64,000 nt of DNA, from assembly GCF_009914755.1 (NCBI RefSeq), contig NC_060941.1. One strand, 5' to 3'. The notes below the pieces were generated by a model, which did no database searches, was not told where the DNA came from, and saw only the letters and a list, made by a program, of their open reading frames with translations. The DNA is from the human T2T-CHM13v2.0 reference genome, Homo sapiens. The first letter of the stretch is position 1; every line of letters starts with the position of its first letter. Position numbers and translations under genes: made by a program. This document shows, piece by piece, positions 21,399 through 44,652 of this stretch.

Positions 21399-23006
21399 GG
21401 CTCGGGCCCGACGCGCACGGAGGACTGGAGGACTGGGGCGTGTGTCTGCGGTGCAGGCGAGGCGGGGCGGGCCGGGGCGGAGTCACGCGCCGCCTGGGGA
21501 CACCCGCCCCCGGGGTCAAGGTGCGAGACACCCTGGCTCCTCTGCTGCGGGCGCTGGCGACCCAGGCCCGGCTCAGGCGCGCGACCCTGGCAGGCGGCAT
21601 CAGAACCGCCGCGGAGGGAGGAGCCAGGCCGATGAGCTGAGAGTGGCTAGGCGGGGAGGCGACCCTGCGGTGAGACCCAGCCCAGGTAGTAGGGACGGAG
21701 GCGTCAGGGGCACGGAGACCCCAGTGGAGACACCCCCCACCCCCGCCCCGCCCCGAGGGCCTTCCCTGACCTCCGACCTCAAATAACTCCCTGAGTTCCC
21801 TCGGTCCCTGAGATCTGTCCGAGCATTCTCTTCCCTCGACCCTGACTATTCGTAGTGGCACTGAGCAGCTCCCCTCGTACGTGACACACATGACACATGC
21901 TGTCGTCTGTCTCTGCCAACAGACGGACCCTCAGTGCCGTAGAGACGTCCTCGTTTTGCCCAAGCTCTGTCTTCAGTACCTAGGGCAATGCTTGGCACAG
22001 AAACATCTGGGAATTCCTAGGGCAGAAAGTTCAAGGACTCCCCACTCCCCCTCCCCGTGGGTCAAGGAGTGAGAGGTCCCCTCTGAGTATGGCTTCAGCA
22101 GAGGTGACCCAGGGGAGCTGGCTCTTCAGCCCAATAATGTTTTGGGTGAGACGGGTAGCTACAGGGAAAACACATCCGGAGGTCATCATTCTGGGTGGGC
22201 AGGCAGACCAGCCGGGTCCCGCTGCCATTCCACTCCCTCAAGAGCGCCCAGGCCTGAACCCAGGGCCAGGGCCTCAGCCAAGCCCTCTGAGATGTGGGAG
22301 CCACACCTGTCACATCCCCTTCCCATCAGCCCAGGCCCCCACCCCGCACTGCTGGAGATGGCCTTGGTCCTCAGGGGATAAGCCTCTGTCCTCTACAAAC
22401 TCCTCTTCCCTGCTTCTGAATACCCTTTCTCTTTTCTTTTTTGTTTTACTTACTCCCAGTTTCATGACTTAAGGGATCTGGTATGGTGAGGACAGTGGCA
22501 TCTTTAGCAGGAGACCCCTAGGAAAGAGAAGTTGGGTGGGTGGGGTAAGGGAGAGACAGTCAGGGATCCTAATGACATTGATTCCTTTTGACTCCTTCCT
22601 GGTGTTTTCCTTCAGGAATTCTTTTTTTTCTCTCTTTGTTTAGAAACAGGGTCTCGCTCTATCACTCAGGCTGGAGTGCAGTGGCACAATCACAGCTCAC
22701 TGCAGCCTCGATTTCCTAGGCTCAAGTGATCCTCCCCCTCAGCCTCCTGAGTAGCTTGGGACTACAGGCACACACGGGGACCACTAAGCCTGGCTAATCA
22801 TGAATTCGTATGAGCTTATTCCTTTAATTCTTTATCAAAGAATAAGATTTATTTACCAGCTCAGTATTCTAAGGGACTGACAATTTAATAAACCAATTCT
22901 CACCAAGTGCACGTGCGCATATACCTGCCCCGCAGGTTATCATTGACTTTCACATACTGATGAGGTTTTGTGGATTCCCCACATCCCTCAAGGATGGCAT
23001 CATCTA

Positions 23007-33231: not shown

Positions 33232-33707
<476 letters not shown>

Positions 33708-35390
33708 TGTCTTCGGAATTGGTGGGTTCTTGGTCTCACTGACTTCAAGAATGAAGCCGCGGACCCTCACGGTGAGCGTTACAGTTCTTAAAGGCGGCGT
33801 GTCCAGAGTTTGTTCCTTCTGATGCTCGGATGTGTTTGGAGTTTCTTCTTTCTGGTGGGTTTGTGGTCTCATTGGCTTCAGGAGTGAAGCTGCAGACCTT
33901 CGCAGTGAGTGTTACAGCTCTTAAGGTGGCATGTCCGGAATTGTTCATTCCTCCCGGTGGGTTCATGGTCTCACTGGCCTCAGGAGAGAAGCTACAGACC
34001 TTTGCGGTGAGTGTTACAGCTCATAAAGGCAGTGCGGACCCAAAGAGTGAGAAGCAGCAAGATTTATTGCAAAGGGCAAAAGAAGAAAGCTTCCACAGTG
34101 TGGAAGGGGACCCGAATGGGTTGACACTGCTGGCTTGGCAGCCTGCTTTTATTCCTTTATCTGGCCCCACCCACATCCTGCTGCTTGTTCCATTTTACAG
34201 AAAGCTGATTGGTCTGTTTTACAGAGAGCTGATTGGTCCGTTTTGACAGGGTGCTGATGGGTGCATTTACAATCCCTGAGCTAGACACAAAAGTTCTCCA
34301 AGTCCCCACTAGATTAGCTAGACACAGAGCACTGATTGGTGCATTTACAAACCTCGAGCTAGACACAGGGTGCTGATTGGTGTATTTACAAACCTTGAGC
34401 TAGACACAGAGTGCTGATTGGTATATTTACAATCCCTTAGCTAGACATAAAGATTCTCCAAGTCCCCACTAGATTAGCCAGATACAGAGTGCCGATTGGT
34501 GTGTTTACAAACCTTGAGCTAGACACAGAGTGCTGATTGGTGTATCCACAATCCCTTAGCTAGACATAAAGGTTCTCCAAGTCCCCACCAGATTAGCCAG
34601 ATACAGAGTTCTGATTGGTGCATTCACAAACTTTGAGTTAGTTTATGTTTGCATTTACAAACCTCTAGCTAGACACAGAGTGCTGATTGGTGCATCTACA
34701 ATCCCTTAGCTAGACATAAAGTTTCTCCAAGTCCCCACTAGACTCAGGAGCCCAGCTGGCTTCACCTAGTGGATCCTGCACCGGGGCCGCAGGTGGAGCT
34801 GCCTGCCAGTCCTGCGCAATGCGCCTGCACTCCTCAGCCCTTGGGCGGTCGATGGGACCGGGCGCCATGGAGCAGGCGACAGCGCTCGTCGGGGAGGCTC
34901 GGGCCGCACAGGAGCCCACGGCAGAGGGGAGGCTCAGGCATGGCAGGCTGCAGGTCCCGGGCCCTGCCCCTCAGGGAGGCAGCTGAGGCCCGGCGAGAAT
35001 TTGAGTGCAGCGCTGGTGGGCCGGCACTGCTGGGGGACTCGGCACACCCTCCGCAGCTGCTGGCCCAGGTGTTAAGCCCCTCACTGCCGGGGGCCCGGCG
35101 GCGCTGGTGACCGCTCCGAGTGCGGGGCCCGCCAAGCCCACGCCCACCTGGAACTCGCGCTGGCCCACAAGCGCCGTGTGCAGCCCCAGTTCCCGCCCGC
35201 ACCTCTCCCTCCAGACCTCCCTGCAAGCTGAGGGAGCCAGCTCCGGCCTCGGCCAGCCCAGAAAGGGGCTCCCACAGTGCAGCGGTGGGCTGAAGGGCTC
35301 CTCAAGTGTGGCCAGAGTGGGCGCCAAGGCCGAGAAGGCACCTAGAGCAAGCGAGGGCTGCAAGGGCTGCCAGCACGCTGTCACCTCTCA
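33708..35390 (-). mobile_element. Complete LTR12 (HERV9 LTR, LTR12C-like) in the 3'-LTR position
   Basis: On minus it starts TGAGAGGTGACAGCGTGCTGGCAGCCC (35390), has tandem CACCAATCAGCAC/CTAGCT U3 repeats, an AATAAAAGCAGGC box and U5 repeats, and ends CCAATTCCGAAGACA. Preceded by the polypurine tract CAGGGGGGAT (35400-35391). Confidence 0.92.
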
Positions 35391-35558
35391 ATCCCCCCTG
35401 TAAACAGGACACCCCAACTGCTGTTGGGAATTTGGCCAATGACCGTTCTAGCTACTTCCTGCTGGATAGGGGTGATGAAGGGGCCCTGCAGCTGCAGTGT
35501 CCTCCAGAGGGGTGCTCTCTAGGCCAGTAAAAGTGCCAGCGGGTCAGTCCAGGGGTCC

Positions 35559-36290
35559 TCAGTAGAAGTTGTTAGTTGAACTCATTTGGGGTTCCATTTG
35601 TAAGACCATCTGTAGCTTGATGGCCTCGATTCTAGAGGAAACAAATTTGACAAGAAGGTTAAAAATACAGGGCCCAAAGGCAAGTAACAGCAAGATGGCT
35701 GCCATGGGACCTACAAGGAGAGAAGCCATGTTGCCCAACTCCAGAGGTTGGTATAAGAATTTGAAAGGCATTGCCTGATTTCAGAAGCCTTTTCCTGTAA
35801 ACGCCGGGTGGCATCTCTTACTATCCCTGACTGGTTAGTGTAAAACCAACACTCTTCCCCTAAGAAGGTGCAGAGTCCTCCTTTCTCAGCAGTGAGGAGG
35901 TCTAGGCCTCGGTGGTTTTGGAGAGTCACTGCTGCCAAAGAGTCTATTTGGAATTGTAGAGTAAGAATAGATTTCGTTATTTCTTGCAAACTGTCTGAGA
36001 AATCCTTTGAGAGTGTGTGGTAGTAGGATAATGAAGTAGATAAACCAGCTATTCCAGTTCCTGTAGCAGTAGCCATTCCTAACCCTATAATTAGGGGTAT
36101 TAGTTGTATGGCTCTGCACTGACGGACTTGAGCTTTGAGGGGTACTGATAAAAGTCTGATTTCCTGGGGCAATGTTAATGTTGGGACTTAGAAAGACTAA
36201 GGTGCCAGTGCCGGTCCAGTTAGTGGGGAGGCAGATATAGGTCGATGTTCCACATAAGAAGAATATGCCTTGGCTGGGTAGGCAGAACTT
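35559..36290 (-). pseudogene. HERV9 env remnant (end of SU plus TM)
   Basis: Cleavage-site remnant RQCR, fusion peptide AIQLIPLIIGLGMATATGTGIAGL, immunosuppressive domain LQNHRGLDLLTAEKGGLC, decayed CX6CC (CTFLGEECW), frameshifted TM/cytoplasmic tail. Confidence 0.9.
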
Positions 36291-36294
36291 TACC

Positions 36295-36540
36295 TGGCTT
36301 TTAAAGGAATAGGGTACACTGTTTTTTCTTTACTATTTCTATCTCTCTCTTTCTCTCTTCGACTTCTTCTTTGTCTCTCTCTTTCTCTCTTTCTCTCTGA
36401 CTCCCCCTTTGTCTCTTCCTCTCTTTCCTTCTTTTTGTCTCTGTTTCTTCCTCTCTCTTTCTCTGACTTCCTGTCTCTTTCTCTCTTTCCTTTCTGCTGC
36501 CTCTGCCAGCTGCTTATGCTGCTGTTCTCCTCTCTCCTCC
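36295..36540 (-). repeat. AG-rich low-complexity tract of the HERV9 internal region
   Basis: On minus: GGAGAACAGCAGCATAAGCAGCTGGCAGAGGCAG...(AG-rich)...GATAGAAATAGTAAAGAAAAAACAGTGTACCCTATTCC. Confidence 0.8.
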
Positions 36541-36658
36541 AGACATGCTGCCTTTAAGAACTGTAACACTCACCGCGAGGGTCCACGGCTTCATTCTTGA
36601 AGTCAGTGAGACCAAGAACCCACCAATTCCTGACACATTTTGGCAACCTTGAAGGGAC
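36537..36658 (+). mobile_element. Terminal ~100 bp of an LTR12 U5 followed by a tRNA-Arg-type primer binding site
   Basis: ...GAGACCAAGAACCCACCAATTCCTGACACA (ends 36637), TTT, then TGGCAACCTTGAAGGGAC (36641-36658). Confidence 0.85.
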
Positions 36659-37857
36659 TATCACCTATCACCAAGCGGTGAGACCATTGTGTATCACTGA
36701 GTGAAGGGACTATCACCTATCGCCAAGCAGTGAGTACCATCGGACCCCTTTCACTTGCTATTCTGTCCTATTTTTCCTTAGAATTTGGGAGCTAAATACC
36801 GGGCACCTGTCGGCCAGTTAAAATCCACTAGCATGGCCACCGGACTAAAGACACGGATGTCAGGCTTTCTGGGAAAGGGCTCTCTAACAATCCCCTACTC
36901 TTCGGAGTTGGGAGCGTTGGTTTGCCTAGAACCAGCTTCCACTTTTCCTGTACTTCTGGGCTGAGCCAAGCGTTGACAGAGAGGAAAGCCATGCAGCTCT
37001 GGGGTCCCAACAACAAGTTGGTTGACCCTGTGGCCATGAGCAGAACTCTCAAAGGCATGTTGCCCAAGCAAGACTCGCCCATCTATCCTATCTATCCTGA
37101 CCCTTGTCCCCTGGGTCCTAATGCTTGCCAGACAAACTTCCTCTCACCTATCTTCTCCAAGGTTAGTCCTGCTTCTAAAAATCACTACCTGTCTCTGGTG
37201 CTTTTCTAGTTTCTCCTATAAGAATGACTTCTAGTATAAACTCTGTTACCTTCTTTAGGCACCCAGGCTCACCAATCAGAAAGACATAATTTTTGCCCAA
37301 AGCCCCATCATAGTGGGACTACCTGGAAATTTAGGATCCCTTCTCAGACAAACAGGCCTAACAAAATCTATTCCTGAAGCTAGGATATGGGGAGCCTCAG
37401 AAATTGTATCCTTCCTGTTCATATAAGTGAGGGCAAAAGGTGTCACTCTTCCAACCCTGGAGATCCCTTCCCTCCCTCAGGGTATGGCCCTCCACTTCAT
37501 TTTTGGGGCATAACATCTTTATAGGACATGGGTAAGGTCCCAATACTAACAGGAGAATGCTTGGGACTCTAACATGTTTTTGAGAATGCGTCAGTAAGGG
37601 CCACTAAATCCTATTTTTCTCAGTCCTCCTTGTGGTCTAGGAGGACAGGGAAGGGTGCAGGTTTTCGAGAATGCATAGGTAAGGGCCACTAAATCCAACC
37701 TTCCTCGGTCCTCCATGTGGTCTGGGAGGAAAGCTAGTGTTTCTGCTGCCGCGTCAGTGAGCACAACTATTCTGATCAGCAGGGTTCAGGGACCGTTGCA
37801 GGTTCTTGGGCAGGGGGAGAAACAAAAACCAAAACCACGGGCGGTTTTGTCTTTCAG

Positions 37858-39318
37858 ATGGGAAACACTCAGGCATCAACAGGCTCACCCTTGAAATGCA
37901 TCCTAAGCCATTGGGACCAATTTGACCCACAAACCCTGAAAAAGAGGCGGCTTATTTTTTTCTGCACTACGGCTTGGCCCCAATAGCCTCTCCCTGATGG
38001 GGAAAAATGGCCACCTAAGGGAAGTACGAATTACGATACTATCCTGCAGCTTGACCTTTTCTGTAAGAGGGAAGGCAAATGGAGTGGAATACCTTATGTC
38101 CAAGCTTTCTTTTCATTGAGGGAGAATACACAACTATGCAAAGCTTGCAATTTACATCCCACAGGAGGACCTCTCAGCTTACCCCCATATCCTAGCCTCC
38201 CTATAGCTCCCCTTCCTATGAATGATAATCCTCCGCTAATCTCCCCTGCCCAGAAGGAAATAAGCAAAGAAATCTCCAAAGGACCACAAAAACCCCTGGG
38301 CTATCAGTTATGTCCCCTTCAAGCTGTAGGGGGAGGGGAATTTGGCCCAACCTGGGTACATGTCCCTTTCTCCCTCTCTGACTTAAAGCAGATCAAGGCA
38401 GACCTGGGGAAGTTTCAGATGATCCTGATAGGTACATATATGTCCTACAATGTCTAGGGCAAACCTTCGACCTCGCTTGGAGAGATGTCATGCTGCTGTT
38501 AGATCAAACCCTGGCCTTTAATGAAAAGAATGTGGCTTTAGCTGCAGCCCAAGAGTTTGGAGATACTTGGTATCTTAGTCAAGTAAATGATAGAATGACA
38601 GCCGAAGAAAGGGACAAATTCCCTACTGGTCAGCAAGCCATCCCCAGTATGGATCCCCACTGGGACCTTGACTCAGATCATGGGGACTGGAGTCATAAAC
38701 ATCTGTTGACCTGTGCTCTAGAAGGACTAAGAAGAATTAGGAAAAAAGCCCATGAATTATTCAATGATGTCCACCGTAACTCAGGGAAAGGAATAAAATC
38801 CTTCTGCCTTCCTCAAGCAGCTACGGGAGGCCTTAAGAAAATATTCTCCCCTGTCACTCTAATCACTCGAGGGTCAACTGATTCAAAAAGATAAGTTTAT
38901 TACCCAATCAGCTGCAGATATCAGGAGAAAGCTCCAAAAGCAAGCCCTGGGCCCTGAACAAAATTTGGAGGCAGTATTAAACCTGGCAACCTCAGTGTTC
39001 TATAATAGGGACCAAGAGGAACAGGCCCGAAAGGAAAAGCAAGATCAGAGAAAGGCCGCAGCCTTAGTCATGGCCCTCAGACAAACAAACCTTGGTGGCT
39101 CAGAGAGGACAGAAAATGGAGCAGGCCAATAACCCGGTAGGGCTTTTTATCAGTGTGGTTTACTAGGACACTTTAAAAAAGATTGTCCAATGAGAAACAA
39201 GCTGCCCCCTCGTCCATGTCCACTATGCCGAGGCAATCACTGGAAGGTGCACTGCCCCAGAGGATGAAGGTTATCTGGGTCAGAAGCCCCCAACCAGATG
39301 ATCTAACAGCAGGACTGA
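37858..39318 (+). pseudogene. HERV9 gag (disrupted)
   Basis: ATG GGA AAC ACT CAG (MGNTQ); PPPY-like LPPYP; capsid fragments in the ORF track; zinc knuckles QCGLLGHFKKDC and CPLCRGNHWKVHC; several stops and frameshifts. Confidence 0.88.
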
Positions 39319-41337
39319 GGGTGCCCGGGGCAAGCACCAGCTCATGTCATCACCCTCACTGAGCCCCGGGTACGTTTAACCATTGAGGGCCAGGAAATTG
39401 ACTTCCTCCTGGACACTGGCGTGGCCTTCTCAGTGTTAATCGTTAATCTCCTGTCCTGGATGACTGTCCTCAAGGTCCATTACCATCTGAGGAATCCTGG
39501 GACAGCCTGTAACCAGGTAGTTCTCCCACCTCCTCAGTCGTAATTGGGAGACTTTGCTCTTTTCACATGCCTTTCTTGTTATGCCTGAAAGTCCCACACC
39601 CTTATTAGGGAGGGATATATTGTCCAAGGCTGGAGCTATTATCTACATGAATATGGGGAACAAGTTACCCATTTGTTGTCCCCTACTTGAGGAGGGAATC
39701 AACCCTGAAGTCTGGGCACTGGAAGGACAACTTGGAAGGGCAAAAAAATGCCTGCCCAGTCCAAATCAGGTTAAAAGATCCCACCACTTTTCCTTATCAA
39801 AGACAATATCCCTTAAGGCCTGAAGCCCATAAAGGATTACAGAATATTGTTAAACGTTTAAAGGCTCAAGGCTTAGTAAGGAAATGCAGCAGTCCCTGCA
39901 ACACCCCAATTCTAGGAGTACAAAAACTGAAAGGTCAGTGGAGACTAGTGCAAGATCTTAGACCCATCAATGAGGCAGTAATTCCTCTATATCCAGTTGT
40001 ACCCAACCCCTATACCCTGCTCTCTCAAATACCAGAGGAAGCAGAATGGTTCATGGTTCTGGACCTCAAGGATGCCTTCTTCTGTATTCCCCTGCACTCT
40101 GACTCCCAGTTTCTCTTTGCCTTTGAGGATCCCACAGACCACACATCCCAACTTACATGGACGGTATTGCCCCATGGGTTTAGGGATAGCCCTCATCTGC
40201 TTGGTCAGGCACTGGCCCAAGATCTAGGCCATCTCTCAAGTCCAGGCACTCTGGTCCTTCAATATGTGGATGATTTACTTTTGGCTACCAGTTCGGAAGC
40301 CTCATGCCAGCAGGCTACTCTAGATCTCTTGAACTTTCTAGCTAATCAAGGGTACAAGGTGTCTAGGTCGAAGGCCCAGCCTTGCCTACAGCAGGTCAAA
40401 TATCTAGGCCTAATCTTAGCCAGAGGCACCAGGGCCCTCAGCAAGGAACCAATACAGCCTATACTGGCTTATCTTCACCCTAAGACATTAAAACAATTAA
40501 GGGAGTTCCTTGGAATTACCGGCTTTTGCTGACTATGGATCCCCAGATACAGCAAGATAGCCAGGTCCCTCTATACTCTAATCAAGGAAACCCAGAAGGC
40601 AAATACTCATCTAGTAGAATGGGAACCAGAGGCAGAAACATCCTTCAAAACCTTAAAGCAGGCCCTAGCACAAGCTCCAGCTTTAAGCCTTCCAACAGGA
40701 CAAAATTTCTCTTTATACGTCACAGAGCAGGGATAGCTCTTGGAGTCCTTACTCAGACTCGTGGGACAACCCCACAACCAGTGGCATACCTAAGTAAGGA
40801 AATTGATGTAGTAGCAAAAGGCTGGCCTCACTGTTTAACGGTAGTTGCAGCAGTGGCCATCTTAGTGTCAGAGGCCATCAAAATAATACAAGGAAAAGAT
40901 CTCACTGTCTGGACTACTCATGATGTAAATGGCATACTATGTGCCAAAGGAAGTTTATGGCTATCAGACAACTGCCTACTTAGATACCAGGAGCTACTCC
41001 TTGAGGGACTGGTGCTTCAAATATGCACATGCGTGGCCCTCAACCCTGCCACTTTTCTCCCAGAGGATGGGGAACCAATCGAGCATGACTTTTATGGTCC
41101 AGACTTATGCCACCCGAGATGATCCCTTAGAAGTCCCCTTAGCTAATCCTGACCTTAACCTATATACCAATGGAAGTTCATTTGTGGAGAATGGGATATG
41201 AAGGGCAGGTTACGCCATAGTGAGGTAACCATACTTGAAAGTAAGCCTCTTCCCCCAGGGACCAGGGCCCAGTTAGCAGAACTAGTGGCACTTACCTGAG
41301 CCTTAGAACTGGGAAAGGGGAAAAAGAATAAATGTGT
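39319..41337 (+). pseudogene. HERV9 pro-pol (protease, RT, start of RNase H; truncated, no integrase)
   Basis: FLLDTG at ~39403; RT motifs WRLVQDLR, LDLKDAFF and QYVDDLLL in ORF 39687-40532; RNase H LYTNGSSF; breaks off at ...KRINV. Confidence 0.92.
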
Positions 41338-42239
41338 GCGGACTTGGAGAAACTTTACGTCTAGCTAAGGGATTGTAGATACACCAATCAGCACTCTGTG
41401 TCTAGCTCAAGGTTTGTAAATGCACCAATCAGCACTCTGTGTCTAACTCAAGGTTTGTGAATGCACCAATCAGCACTCTGTATCTGGCTAATCTGGAGGG
41501 GACTTGGAGAAGCTTTATGTCTAGCTAAGGGATTGTAAATACACCAACCAGCACTCTGTGTCTAGCTCAAGGTTTGTAAATACACCAATCAGTGCTTTTC
41601 GTCTAGCTAATCTAGTGGGGAGTTGGAGAACTTCTGTGTCTAGCTCAGGGATTGTAAACACACCAATCAGCACCCTGTCAAAACAGACCAATCAGCCCTC
41701 TGTAAAACAGCCCAATCAGCTCTCTGTGAAATGGACCAATCAGCAGGATGTGGGTGGGGCCAGATAAAGGAATAAAAGCAGGCTGTCCAAGCAGCACTGG
41801 TAACCCGCTGGGGTCCCCTTCCACACTGTGGAAGCTTTGTTCTTTCACTATTTGCAATAAATCTTGCTGCTTCTCACTCTTTGGGTCTGCACCGCCTTTA
41901 TGAGCTGTAACACTCACTGCGAAGGTCTGCAGCTTCACTCCTGAGGCCAGCGAGACCATGAACCCACCGGGAGGAATGAACGACTCTGGACGGGAGGAAA
42001 AAACAACTCCAGATGCACCACCTTAAGAGCTGTAACACTCACCGCGAAGGTCTGCAGCTTCACTCCTGAAGCCAGCGAGACCACGAACCCACCAGAAGGA
42101 AGAAACTCCAAACACATCCGAACATCAGAAGGAACAAACTCCGGACATGCTGCCTTTAAGAATTGTAACACTTACCGTGAGGGTCTGCAGCTTCGTTCTT
42201 TAAGTCAGTGAGACCAAGAACCCACCAATTTCGCATACA
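41338..42239 (+). mobile_element. 5'-truncated LTR12 (U3 repeats, R, U5)
   Basis: CACCAATCAGCACTCTGTGTCTAGCT repeats, GGAATAAAAGCAGGCTG ~41769, GCAATAAATCTTGC ~41854; ends CCAATTTCGCATACA followed by TSD CTGG. Confidence 0.92.
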
Positions 42240-42298
42240 CTGGGACCACAAGTGCACACCACCAACCAGGTTAATTTTTAAATGTTTTGTAGAGATAG

Positions 42299-42628
<330 letters not shown>

Positions 42629-44652
42629 AAATGTCCCTATTCTTGATCTAAATCTTTAGGGAAATGAGTCATGAAAGTTGAGCCCCTACCATGTAATATT
42701 TTCTCCTCTTTGCTTGTGTTGAACATCCCCACAGGCTCCCTGGAGCAGCTCCTGCTCCTGGCACCCCAGGCTTCTGCCCTGGAGCCACACTGACCCATGG
42801 AGCCCCTCATCCTGCTGCCTCTGGTTCATCTCTGCTGGGATGCCAAAGTGCCCCTCGGCTCTCTGTCTTGTCATTCCTCACCCGTGTCCTCTTCTGGACC
42901 ATCGCGGCAAGGACCAGTGAGTCTTTCCTGAGGTGGGTGCAGTGACCAGGATGGCCAAAGAAGCCGCAGGGAGGTGCGCCCCCAGGGCATGGCTGGTGGA
43001 ATCCTGTTGTGTTAGCGCCCTTGGCAGCCTGAGTGTGAGGAGAGCATGGCAGCAGCCAGAGACCCGCGTTCTGGGTCTGACTCTTCCCCTCTGTGGGCCT
43101 CAGTTTTTCCATCTGTAAAGTGGAGGGAGGTGGCTTGGAACCCCTGGATGGTTGCTAGGCAACCTTCCTGCACCAACATCCTGGGGACCTTTCTGATTGA
43201 TGCTGAGGGAAGGGAACTGTCTTGAACTCCCTTTGGCAGAAGAAACTGGCCCAGCAGCTTAGGCAATGGAGCAAGATGACTCCAGGGCCCTTCCTCAGAC
43301 CTGACTGAGAAAACAGAGCCCACTAGGCACCAGCTTATGGAGGAGACTCACCCCTGGGAGAAAGCAGGGCTTCAAATCAGGCTGCCCACGAGCTGCCTGC
43401 GGTGATGAGGGACATGGAGACCCCTCTGGGCCTCTGGAGGGCCCTCATGGAGACCCCTCCAGAGGCCCAGAGCCCAGGTGACAGGCAGCAGCCTCCTGGA
43501 GTATGTTTCTGCCCATCTCTGGAAAAACCCAGGTAGGCACTGGTGGGAAGAGAGAACATGCATCCTCCTGCCCTCCGTAGCTGCAGGCCCTGGCAACAAG
43601 CCTGGAGGCTCAGCCATCCTCCTTGCTCAGGGGGACTCTCCTGCCCTAGTTCTCAGCCCTGCCTCTCCACCAGCTCCTAATTCTGGGCTGAGCTAGGAGA
43701 GCAGGTAAAGGCCTAGGGATCCCTGCAAAGATGCACAGCATGGGGTCTCGAAGACACTCCAGAGAATAGGACCCAGTCCTCACAAGCGCAGAGCAGACCC
43801 CCTCCCGCCCCCACCCCCACCCTTCCACTCTTCACTCTATCCCCAAAGCATTAAAGGACAAGACAGGTACGATACTGATAGAGAACATTCTCTACAAAAG
43901 TGGCAATGAGCCTGCAGGAGGGATTCGGGGTACAGTGGTGGGAGCACAGAGCCTGCTGCACCCCAGCACCAGAAGAACCAGGAGGGGCTGCGGCAGTAAA
44001 CGGACGAGGAACAGGAGAGAAGGGGCAGCACCTGGGGCTCTGGGAGAAACAAGTCGGCACTTGGGGGTGGCCCCAGGCTCAGGCCCAGAGAACAGGGAGA
44101 AGAGCTGTGGTGGGCTCCAGATGGCGGTGGCAGGCAGCCAAGCCCTCAGTGTCCTGCAGTAGGACAGGGACCATCTCCTCCATGCCCCCTACTCTGGGCA
44201 CATGTGTGGGAATGGGAACCCCCAGACAGACCAGAAAGAGGCCTTTGAGGGCTCTCTTTCCCCTGCCCCAGCCATGGGGGCCCCAGGAGATGCTGGGGGC
44301 TGAGGCCATGCTCCCAGCAGGAGCTGCTTCCCAAGCTGAGGTCAGGGATGGGGGGCCATGGCTGAGAAAGGAGGAGAGCACCTCTGCATGGGGTGCAAAG
44401 GGGCGCACACGTGTCAGCGGGCTCATCAGGGACTCTCCCACATCTGTGACCTCAGTCTGGCTGGAGAGCTTTGGGGGCATACGTCAGAGGACACATGCTG
44501 TGACCACCCTCTGAGCTGGCCTTTCCCCTGGTCTCACCACCATCAGAGGGCTGGGACACAGGTGAGCTCTCTTACCCCCGATCCACGCAGAATCACGCAA
44601 CAGCCCAGTCCCTACCAGACCTGGAGGGAAACCTACCAAACACCACCCAACG

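What the first reader, a model, noticed from the sequence alone, without database searches (positions are those of the whole stretch)
33704..42243. HERV9 insertion with two outward-facing U5 ends, three U5 copies and an internal strand switch, yet a clean 4-bp TSD
Seen: an AluJ is split at GAGTAG-CTGG|...|CTGG-GACCAC (CTGG at 33704-33707 and 42240-42243). The left terminus TGTCTTCGGAATTGG is the reverse complement of an LTR12 U5 end, and the right terminus CCAATTTCGCATACA is also a U5 end. Order: [minus: full LTR, PPT, env, AG-rich tract] junction ~36537-36540 [plus: last ~100 bp of U5, PBS, leader, gag, pro, RT, start of RNase H] junction ~41337 [plus: partial U3, R, U5]. Knowledge: a normal provirus has direct-repeat LTRs, one U3 end, one U5 end and only two U5 copies; 4-bp TSDs are the signature of gammaretrovirus-like integrases. 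Inference: integrase joined two U5 ends. Either ends of two different cDNAs were used together and their free ends were then fused (short microhomologies CTCC and GTG are plausible at the junctions), or an aberrant strand-transfer/autointegration product integrated. From my recollection of the element, the pol breakpoint (KRINV) and the start of the minus-strand block are only about 0.2 kb apart in intact HERV9, so the two halves are nearly complementary. This would be a germline fossil of a non-canonical integration route.
Basis: partly seen in the sequence, partly recalled or inferred. Interest (0 to 1): 0.85.

Follow-up and report, generated by a model that had tools for sequence, protein, structure and literature searches.

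The report
HERV9 insertion with two U5 ends
An ancient retrovirus copy between FADS6 and USH1G sits in the genome with the same kind of viral end on both sides yet a perfect integration scar, so it looks like a fossil of a rare, non-standard integration event.

Summary
An 8,532-bp HERV9/LTR12 insertion (window 33708-42239) splits one Alu and is flanked by a 4-bp duplication, CTGG. Both outer termini are U5 ends that keep the terminal CA. The left LTR is full length and on the minus strand (33708-35390). The right LTR is a 904-bp partial LTR on the plus strand (41336-42239). A third U5 piece (36537-36637) runs into the primer-binding-site (PBS) position, leader, gag, pro and RT on the plus strand, while env lies on the minus strand. 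Both internal junctions are unique among the genome candidates scored and overlap by 2 nt. In ordinary HERV9 copies the two internal breakpoints lie only 181-183 nt apart.

Four ordinary copies all have 4-bp duplications, a U3 start and a U5 end. No rearrangement after integration gives a second U5 end exactly at the host boundary. Concerted integrase joining of a DNA with U5 at both ends is therefore the best reading (about 0.8).

How that DNA arose is inferred. I favour head-to-head joining of two minus-strand DNAs during reverse transcription over end-joining of two finished cDNAs. The one-versus-two-parent test was uninformative. Orthologues and long reads could not be checked.

The parts
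33567..33707 (-). Left half of the host Alu (poly-T side first, so the Alu lies on the minus strand)
   Evidence: collinear with the neighbouring Alus up to ...GAGTAGCTGG.
33704..33707 (.). Target-site duplication, copy 1 (CTGG)
33708..35390 (-). Full LTR12-type LTR (1,683 bp), reverse-complemented. Its U5 end (…GAAGACA, read as TGTCTTC on the plus strand) abuts the host. The U3 start TGAGAGGTGAC lies at 35390.
35391..35400 (-). Polypurine tract (AGGGGGGATT in element sense) next to the U3 start
   Evidence: sequence. Same context as the 3' LTR starts of the ordinary copies.
35401..36329 (-). env remnant: SU C-terminal part and TM (PF00429 TLV_coat in the ORF 35711-36187)
   Evidence: Collinear with ordinary copies.
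36330..36538 (-). AG-rich tract (CT-rich on the plus strand) plus the last RNase H codons. The minus-strand block ends at 36538 (breakpoint b).
   Evidence: (family D2).
36537..36538 (.). Junction 1, head to head: 2-nt overlap (CT), or up to CTCC at 36537-36540 if one mismatch is allowed
   Evidence: Only the window's own locus spans the junction among 40 of 1,914 candidates scored.
36537..36637 (+). Third U5 copy: the last 101 bp of U5
   Evidence: (D5, I8).
36638..37737 (+). Primer-binding-site (PBS) position (TTT TGGCAACC...) and leader, contiguous with U5 as in ordinary proviruses
   Evidence: The name PBS is given by position only.
37738..39650 (+). gag (broken frames) and protease remnant
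   Evidence: ORFs; collinear with ordinary copies at 92-93%; a weak RVP match, below the curated cut-off, in the ORF 39319-39543.
39651..41337 (+). RT (PF00078), RT_RNaseH connection and the start of RNase H, up to breakpoint a (…KRINV)
41336..41337 (.). Junction 2: pol joined to the middle of U3, with a 2-nt overlap (GT)
   Evidence: Only the window's own locus spans the junction among 40 of 1,125 candidates scored.
41336..42239 (+). Partial LTR (904 bp): the last part of the U3 repeat array, R and a complete U5 ending ...CATACA
42240..42243 (.). Target-site duplication, copy 2 (CTGG)
42244..42385 (-). Right half of the host Alu

Best explanation
Core claim (about 0.8): one rearranged HERV9 DNA that carried a U5 attachment end at each terminus was inserted by the viral integrase in a single concerted reaction. 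That reaction cut the Alu with the usual 4-bp stagger and left CTGG on both sides.

Favoured route to that DNA (the 0.45 below is for the core plus this route): it was made during reverse transcription from two minus-strand DNAs, each primed at a tRNA and therefore each starting with U5.
- One minus strand copied R-U3-PPT-env and stopped at b, just past the AG-rich tract.
- Its 3' end then paired by a few bases 101 nt inside U5 and was extended through U5 and the PBS position.
- The PBS position let it pair, as in the normal second strand transfer, with a second minus strand that carried PBS-gag-pol.
- Mutual extension gave a duplex whose two ends are ordinary U5 ends.
This is a retroviral counterpart of L1 twin priming.

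The pol|U3 junction (a|u) is either a second template switch before integration or a later deletion inside the right arm.

Shown: the architecture, the ends, the duplication, the junction positions and the 181-183-nt gap. Inferred: that integrase acted on both ends, and every step of the route.
For: - Both termini are U5 ends that keep the terminal CA, and a 4-bp duplication sits in one collinear Alu.
- 4 of 4 ordinary HERV9 proviruses have 4-bp duplications, so the scar is the family's own.
- When only one viral end is joined by integrase, the passages I read in PMC5041404 describe large duplications, deletions or inversions of host DNA, not the short repeat.
- A provirus with inverted LTRs joined through two like ends has an experimental precedent in Colicelli and Goff 1988. 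I saw only its title, in a reference list.

For the reverse-transcription route:
- The middle U5 piece runs without a break into the PBS position and leader, as after a normal second transfer.
- Each strand of the insert reads as minus-strand DNA from a U5 end inward and then as plus sense (my reading).
- Breakpoints a and b are only 181-183 nt apart in 6 of 7 ordinary copies. Two independent breaks in a 5.8-kb interior would fall this close about 6% of the time. The closeness follows naturally if both halves were copied from one RNA, broken or occupied at that point.
- Both junctions are unique to this locus among scored candidates, so neither was inherited from a circulating deleted variant seen elsewhere.
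Against: - Nothing in the sequence shows reverse transcriptase rather than host end-joining made the junctions. A 2-nt overlap fits both and is close to chance.
- The route needs two minus-strand DNAs in one particle plus one or two non-homologous switches.
- The left and right LTRs are not resolved as sisters. Two trees are star-like, with 21 and 16 of 29 inner branches open. Forcing the two together is not rejected (AU p 0.75). They share only 2 rare bases, which 59 of 435 control pairs reach.
- The U3 repeat-unit order differs between the two LTRs...78-41-78-41-41-78 against 78(partial)-41-41-78-41-78. This could mean two templates, slippage during reverse transcription, or later slippage.
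- The a-b closeness could be chance.
- Orthologous loci and long reads were not available, so a later origin of junction 2 and an assembly error are not excluded by data.
Confidence: 0.45

Rival explanations
1. Same core (integrase joined two U5 ends) by a different route. Two finished double-stranded cDNAs, or fragments of them, each gave one U5 end. Their broken inner ends were fused by host non-homologous end-joining before or during integration.
For: - Overlaps of 2 nt at both junctions are typical of end-joining.
- Three U5 copies need more than one LTR pair.
- The different U3 repeat order in the two LTRs fits two source molecules.
Against: - It needs at least three breaks or joins: at b, at U5 minus 101, and at a|U3.
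- It leaves the 181-183-nt closeness of a and b to chance, about 6%. The exception is a version in which one cDNA was cut once and a third LTR fragment was added.
- It gives no reason why the inner U5 piece is exactly contiguous with the PBS position and leader.
Confidence: 0.3
2. An ordinary provirus integrated here and was rearranged afterwards by inversion, inverted duplication or deletion, or by a secondary HERV9 integration followed by deletion.
For: - Rearranged HERV9 copies exist: L048 on contig C1 has an internal inverted U3-R-U5-PBS-leader block.
- Antisense LTRs in HERV chains are usually read as secondary integrations (Vargiu et al. 2016, PMC4724089, passages seen).
- Junction 2 alone could well be a later deletion.
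Against: - An ordinary provirus has a U3 start at one boundary (4 of 4), and here neither boundary has one.
- Any later event would need a breakpoint exactly at the virus-host boundary while leaving the 4-bp duplication and the Alu intact.
- Recombination between the two inverted LTRs only flips the interior into its mirror image, which again has two U5 ends.
- A second provirus would have had to enter the very same 4 bp.
- No other HERV9 piece lies elsewhere in the window.
Confidence: 0.06
3. Assembly artefact: a collinear provirus was mis-joined in the T2T-CHM13 assembly.
For: No call gave evidence for this. I could not check reads or other assemblies.
Against: - The inverted arms are only 89-90% alike, so they would not be confused in assembly.
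- The whole insert is 8.5 kb. From my own knowledge, that is shorter than typical long reads.
- The junctions have clean 2-nt overlaps and the flanks form one Alu.
Confidence: 0.03
4. An L1-mediated processed copy of HERV9 RNA with a 5' inversion made by twin priming.
For: The inverted and direct halves are nearly adjacent in the source sequence (a 181-183-nt gap), as in L1 twin-priming inversions. That feature of L1 is recalled from memory.
Against: - There is no poly(A) at either boundary.
- Both ends carry a complete U5 that stops at CA, whereas an RNA copy would end in R plus poly(A).
- The duplication is 4 bp, not the longer L1 type.
- A full U3 is present.
Confidence: 0.01

Closest known systems
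Moloney MLV provirus with LTRs in inverted orientation, integrated through two U3 sequences (Colicelli and Goff, J Virol 1988;62:633)
   Same: The provirus has LTRs in inverted orientation, and the same LTR edge is used at both host junctions. I saw only the title, in the reference list of PMC5778647. The paper itself (PMC250582) is not held. Anything beyond the title is recalled.
   Different: That case used two U3 ends in a cultured-cell infection with a laboratory virus. This one has two U5 ends, in a germline-fixed primate ERV roughly 20-35 million years old, with a third partial U5 and a head-to-head internal junction.
Ordinary HERV9/ERV9 provirus with LTR12 LTRs
   Same: - LTR12-type LTRs with 41/78-nt U3 repeat units and repeated U5 units (described in PMC11853044).
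- An interior 92-93% identical and collinear, block by block, with genomic copies.
- TG...CA ends and a 4-bp duplication.
   Different: - The LTRs are inverted, not direct.
- There is no U3 start at either boundary.
- The env-3'LTR block is flipped.
- 181-183 nt of RNase H are missing.
- pol is joined to the middle of U3.
Aberrant integrations in which integrase joins one viral end and host repair joins the other (ASLV and HIV-1 work summarised in PMC5041404)
   Same: The viral DNA is rearranged, and extra viral sequence in either orientation can be attached at an end (passages read).
   Different: Those events give truncated viral ends and large host duplications, deletions or inversions. Here both ends are complete to CA and the host scar is the normal 4 bp.
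L1 twin priming (5'-inverted L1 and processed-pseudogene insertions; recalled from memory, no paper read here)
   Same: Two cDNAs made on complementary parts of one RNA are joined head to head by microhomology, with a small loss at the inversion point.
   Different: The enzyme, primers and ends all differ. Here the primers would be tRNAs, the ends are U5 attachment sites, and insertion is by integrase.
Autointegration products (the reference to Lee and Coffin 1990 was seen only in a reference list)
   Same: They contain inverted internal segments made by integrase acting on viral DNA.
   Different: Autointegration joins an LTR terminus to internal DNA with a short duplication and gives circles. 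Here the internal junction lies 101 nt inside U5, 181-183 nt are lost rather than 4 bp gained, and the product was linear with two usable ends.

Membership tests
HERV9/ERV9 (LTR12) element | LTR12-type LTR with ~41-nt tandem units carrying CCAAT in U3 and repeated units in U5 | tested here: met
   Unit spacings of 41, 78, 25 and 24 nt around ACCAATCAGCAC in both LTRs. Three U5 units per LTR (D5 and D9). 88-91% identity to 39 other genomic LTRs. The feature list comes from PMC11853044.
HERV9/ERV9 (LTR12) element | Interior homologous to HERV9 gag-pro-pol-env | tested here: met
   Blocks at 88-93% identity to four proviruses on contigs C18, C1, C8 and C2. Matches to PF00078, PF17917 and PF00429.
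HERV9/ERV9 (LTR12) element | Integrase-type ends (TG...CA) and a 4-bp target duplication | tested here: met
   CTGG|TG...CA|CTGG. 4 of 4 ordinary copies have 4-bp duplications.
Canonical provirus architecture | Two LTRs in direct orientation, with a U3 start at one boundary and a U5 end at the other | tested here: not met
   The LTRs are inverted and both boundaries are U5 ends. The only U3 start (TGAGAGGTGAC) lies inside the insert at 35390.
Provirus integrated through two like LTR ends (Colicelli-Goff type) | The same LTR edge abuts host DNA on both sides, with the family's normal target duplication | tested here: met
   U5 lies on both sides with a 4-bp duplication. The published case used U3 (title only).
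Provirus integrated through two like LTR ends (Colicelli-Goff type) | Both joins made by integrase in one concerted reaction | not testable with these tools
   Inferred from the intact CA ends and the 4-bp stagger.
L1-mediated processed pseudogene with twin-priming inversion | A 3' poly(A), ends within R, and a long variable target duplication | tested here: not met
   No A-run at either boundary, complete U5 at both ends, a full U3 present, and a 4-bp duplication. The defining features are recalled.
Autointegration product | An LTR terminus joined to internal viral DNA with a short duplication of the internal target | tested here: not met
   Junction 1 joins RNase H sequence to U5 minus 101. 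Junction 2 joins pol to the middle of U3. 181-183 nt are missing between a and b.
Secondary (nested) integration, as in Vargiu et al. 2016 | An extra LTR or provirus with its own ends and its own duplication inside or beside a primary element | tested here: not met
   The minus-strand block has only one LTR terminus, which is the outer one that shares CTGG with the far end. Its inner end is a break in RNase H. By contrast, the two outward-facing solo LTRs in L047 each have their own duplication.

The most novel reading that the evidence does not exclude
This locus is a germline fossil showing two things. First, both co-packaged RNAs of an ERV9 particle (or two primers on one RNA) were reverse-transcribed at once. 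Second, the two minus strands were joined head to head, a retroviral twin priming, to give a linear DNA with U5 at both ends that integrase accepted as readily as a normal U3/U5 pair.

If so, two-U5 and two-U3 insertions should form a small, so far unlisted class among ERVs. Their junctions would record where reverse transcription fails in vivo.
Probability: 0.35. Interest if true: 0.7.

Novelty: new variant of a known kind. Interest (0 to 1): 0.55.

Why it matters
Integration through two like ends is known from test-tube assays (recalled) and from one laboratory MLV provirus (title seen). I found no description of a germline ERV of this kind. Searches gave nothing on HERV9 or ERVs with inverted LTRs and a matching duplication. 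These searches cover open-access papers and preprints only, and supplementary HERV tables were not opened.

The locus would be natural evidence that a gamma-like integrase needs only two competent ends, not a U3/U5 pair. It also preserves the junctions of the aberrant DNA for study.

There is a possible practical side effect, which is inference only. Both LTR12 promoters point outward, the left toward FADS6 about 12 kb away and the right toward the 3' end of USH1G about 1.6 kb away and antisense to it. If active, this element would send transcription into both flanks and none into its own interior.

Tried and rejected
- **One versus two parental genomes.**
  - A tree of a 578-nt LTR part for the left LTR, the right LTR and 30 other copies is star-like.
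  - Forcing the two LTRs together is not rejected (AU p 0.75).
  - They share 2 rare bases, which 59 of 435 control pairs reach.
  - The three 101-nt U5 tails are 91, 88 and 88 of 101 identical, and each pair shares one rare state.
  - A second tree meant to benchmark ordinary 5'/3' LTR pairs failed, because only 1 of 8 reference LTRs passed the length filter.
  - All of this is uninformative.
- **Age.**
  - The left and right LTRs differ at 9.9% of all sites and 7.1% of non-CpG sites.
  - The ordinary copies show 2-10% between their own LTRs.
  - The element is therefore old, or its LTRs were already unequal at integration. The two cannot be separated.
- **Genome scan for other outward-facing U5 pairs.**
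  - A 22-nt U5 pattern has 2,370 matches, but only the first 100 are listed.
  - Among those 100 I saw two outward-facing pairs within 12 kb.
  - One is two independent solo LTRs (L047). The other is an internal inverted block in a rearranged provirus (L048).
- **Junctions inherited from a deleted lineage.** No other locus spans either junction, but only 40 of 1,125 and 40 of 1,914 candidates were scored.
- **Rejected readings.** L1 twin priming, plain autointegration, secondary integration, and inversion between the LTRs, for the reasons given under the rival explanations.

Full report
**What is there.**
- Between FADS6 and USH1G, an Alu on the minus strand is split after ...GAGTAGCTGG (33707) and resumes with CTGGGACCACAAG at 42240.
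- Joining the two halves with a single CTGG gives one Alu that is collinear with its two neighbours. The two flanks therefore belong to one element, and CTGG (33704-33707 and 42240-42243) is a true 4-bp target duplication.
- The 8,532 bp in between are all HERV9/LTR12. No other HERV9 piece lies elsewhere in the window.

**Anatomy, from left to right.**
- A full 1,683-bp LTR lies on the minus strand (33708-35390), with its U5 end against the host and its U3 start (TGAGAGGTGAC) at 35390.
- Next come the polypurine tract (35391-35400) and an env remnant with a strong TM match on the minus strand (PF00429, E 8e-42, ORF 35711-36187).
- An AG-rich tract follows (CT-rich on the plus strand, about 36330-36536), then the last RNase H codons, ending at 36538.
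- The strand then switches. The last 101 bp of U5 (36537-36637) run without a break into the primer-binding-site (PBS) position, leader, gag, a protease remnant, RT (PF00078, E 4e-24) and the RT_RNaseH connection, up to 41337, all on the plus strand.
- At 41336 a partial LTR begins. It is 904 bp long and comprises the end of the U3 repeat array, R and a complete U5. It ends ...CATACA at 42239.
- All three U5 ends read CCAATT..ACA. The left and right LTRs pair as inverted repeats at 89-90%.

**Breakpoints.**
- I used natural genomic HERV9 copies as rulers.
- With a pol query, all 39 other scored loci stop aligning at window 41337 or 41338 (40 of 1,266 candidates scored).
- With 120-nt queries centred on each junction, only the window's own locus spans the junction. 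Other loci match one side or the other, and the two sides overlap by 2 nt: 36537-36538 and 41336-41337 (40 of 1,125 and 40 of 1,914 candidates scored).
- In ordinary copies the pol breakpoint a (after ...KRINV) and the start of the flipped block b are 181-183 nt apart in 6 of 7 loci. The seventh did not align at the block start. The missing piece is the C-terminal part of RNase H.
- The insert therefore holds nearly a whole parental interior, with the env-3'LTR part flipped, plus an extra partial LTR.

**Why integrase must have joined two U5 ends.**
- Four ordinary HERV9 proviruses (contigs C18, C1, C8, C2) all begin TGAGAGG at U3 and end ...ACA at U5. All have 4-bp duplications: ACAG, GCAC, ATAT and TTTT.
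- The window element has the same scar and the same terminal CA, but U5 on both sides and no U3 start at a boundary.
- Any later inversion, inverted duplication, deletion or nested integration would need a breakpoint exactly at the virus-host boundary without disturbing the duplication or the Alu.
- Recombination between the two inverted LTRs only turns the interior into its mirror image, which again has two U5 ends.
- Two separate proviruses would have had to enter the same 4 bp.
- When one end is joined by host repair, the literature I read describes truncated viral ends and large host rearrangements, not the short repeat (PMC5041404, passages).
- An L1-made copy is excluded by the complete U5 ends, the full U3, the lack of poly(A) and the 4-bp scar.
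- A laboratory precedent for integration through two like ends exists: Colicelli and Goff 1988, using two U3 ends. I saw only its title, and the paper is not held.

**How the two-U5 DNA arose (inference).**
- Read from either outer end, each strand of the insert looks like a minus-strand DNA that starts at the tRNA/U5 boundary and later continues as plus sense.
- The simplest scheme I can build uses two minus-strand DNAs.
- The first copies R-U3-PPT-env and stops at b. Its 3' end pairs by 2-4 bases (CT, or CTCC) at a point 101 nt inside U5 and is extended through U5 and the PBS position.
- The PBS position then pairs, as in the normal second transfer, with the second minus strand, which carries PBS-gag-pol. 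Mutual extension yields a duplex with an ordinary U5 end at each terminus.
- This scheme explains the three U5 copies, the unbroken U5-PBS-leader in the middle, and the closeness of a and b, provided both halves were copied from one RNA that was broken or occupied there.
- Two independent breaks would fall that close only about 6% of the time in a 5.8-kb interior.
- The pol|U3 junction may be a second template switch, or a later deletion trimming the inner part of the right arm. I cannot tell which.
- The alternative route is fusion of two finished cDNAs by host end-joining. It fits the 2-nt overlaps equally well, but it needs more breaks and leaves the a-b closeness to chance.
- I put the core claim at about 0.8, the reverse-transcription route at about 0.45 and the end-joining route at about 0.3.

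**Tests that gave no answer.**
The three U5 tails have no informative shared variants.
- The order of the U3 repeat units differs between the two LTRs. This fits two templates but also slippage.
- LTR divergence is 9.9% at all sites and 7.1% at non-CpG sites. This places the event early in ERV9 activity, which a review dates from about 30 to 6 million years ago (PMC11853044, passages).
- The four ordinary copies show 2-10% divergence between their own LTRs.

**How common, and is it in print.**
- A U5 pattern has 2,370 genomic matches, but only 100 were listed.
- The two outward-facing pairs among those 100 are not of this kind.
- Six literature searches found no description of an ERV with inverted terminal LTRs and a matching duplication, and none of this locus.
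- Vargiu et al. 2016 treat antisense LTRs as secondary integrations (passages). Their supplementary tables were not opened and might list this locus.

**Verdict.**
- It is a new natural variant of a known kind of aberrant provirus. It is of moderate interest to retrovirologists, and more so if a genome-wide census shows a class with recurrent junction sites.
- Orthologues and long reads are the decisive missing checks.

Noticed in passing
L048 (G000:C1:86641200-86651199), locus 1117-9419: This is another rearranged HERV9. It is a minus-oriented provirus that carries a plus-oriented block, comprising partial U3, R, U5, the PBS position and about 265 bp of leader (locus 6437-7317). The block sits in place of about 333 bp of gag, and the BLAST blocks overlap by 9 and 6 nt at its two junctions. 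It also has three U5 copies, but its left outer end is ordinary. The U3 end of its 5' LTR was not found within 1.5 kb more (L049).
   Followed up: partly
L047 (G000:C1:12872800-12882799), locus 1372-2875 and 7566-8862: Two complete LTR12 solo LTRs face outward, 4.7 kb apart. Each has its own 4-bp duplication (GCGC/GCTC and GTAG/GTAG). They are independent insertions that mimic the outward-facing pattern.
   Followed up: yes
window 36330-36538 and loci L002-L008: In the HERV9 copies examined, the RNase H C-terminus is followed by a roughly 200-nt AG-rich tract and then the SU C-terminus and TM. In the C8 copy only about 1.1 kb lies between the pol breakpoint and the 3' LTR. No integrase-coding stretch is present, so this lineage, including the window's parent, must have used integrase supplied in trans.
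   Followed up: partly
window 33708-35390 (minus) and 41336-42239 (plus): Both LTR12 promoters point out of the element. The left one points toward FADS6 (TSS near 21433). The right one points toward the 3' end of USH1G (43868) and is antisense to it. No expression data were examined.
   Followed up: no
window 34189-34691 and 41383-41735: The U3 repeat arrays of the two LTRs differ in unit order. The left reads ...78-41-78-41-41-78 and the right reads 78(partial)-41-41-78-41-78. One 119-nt (41+78) gain or loss would account for the difference.
   Followed up: partly
window 33255-33566 and 42386-42640: Two further Alus, in the same orientation as the split one, lie directly on either side of it. 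The insertion therefore sits in a tight cluster of three Alus.
   Followed up: no
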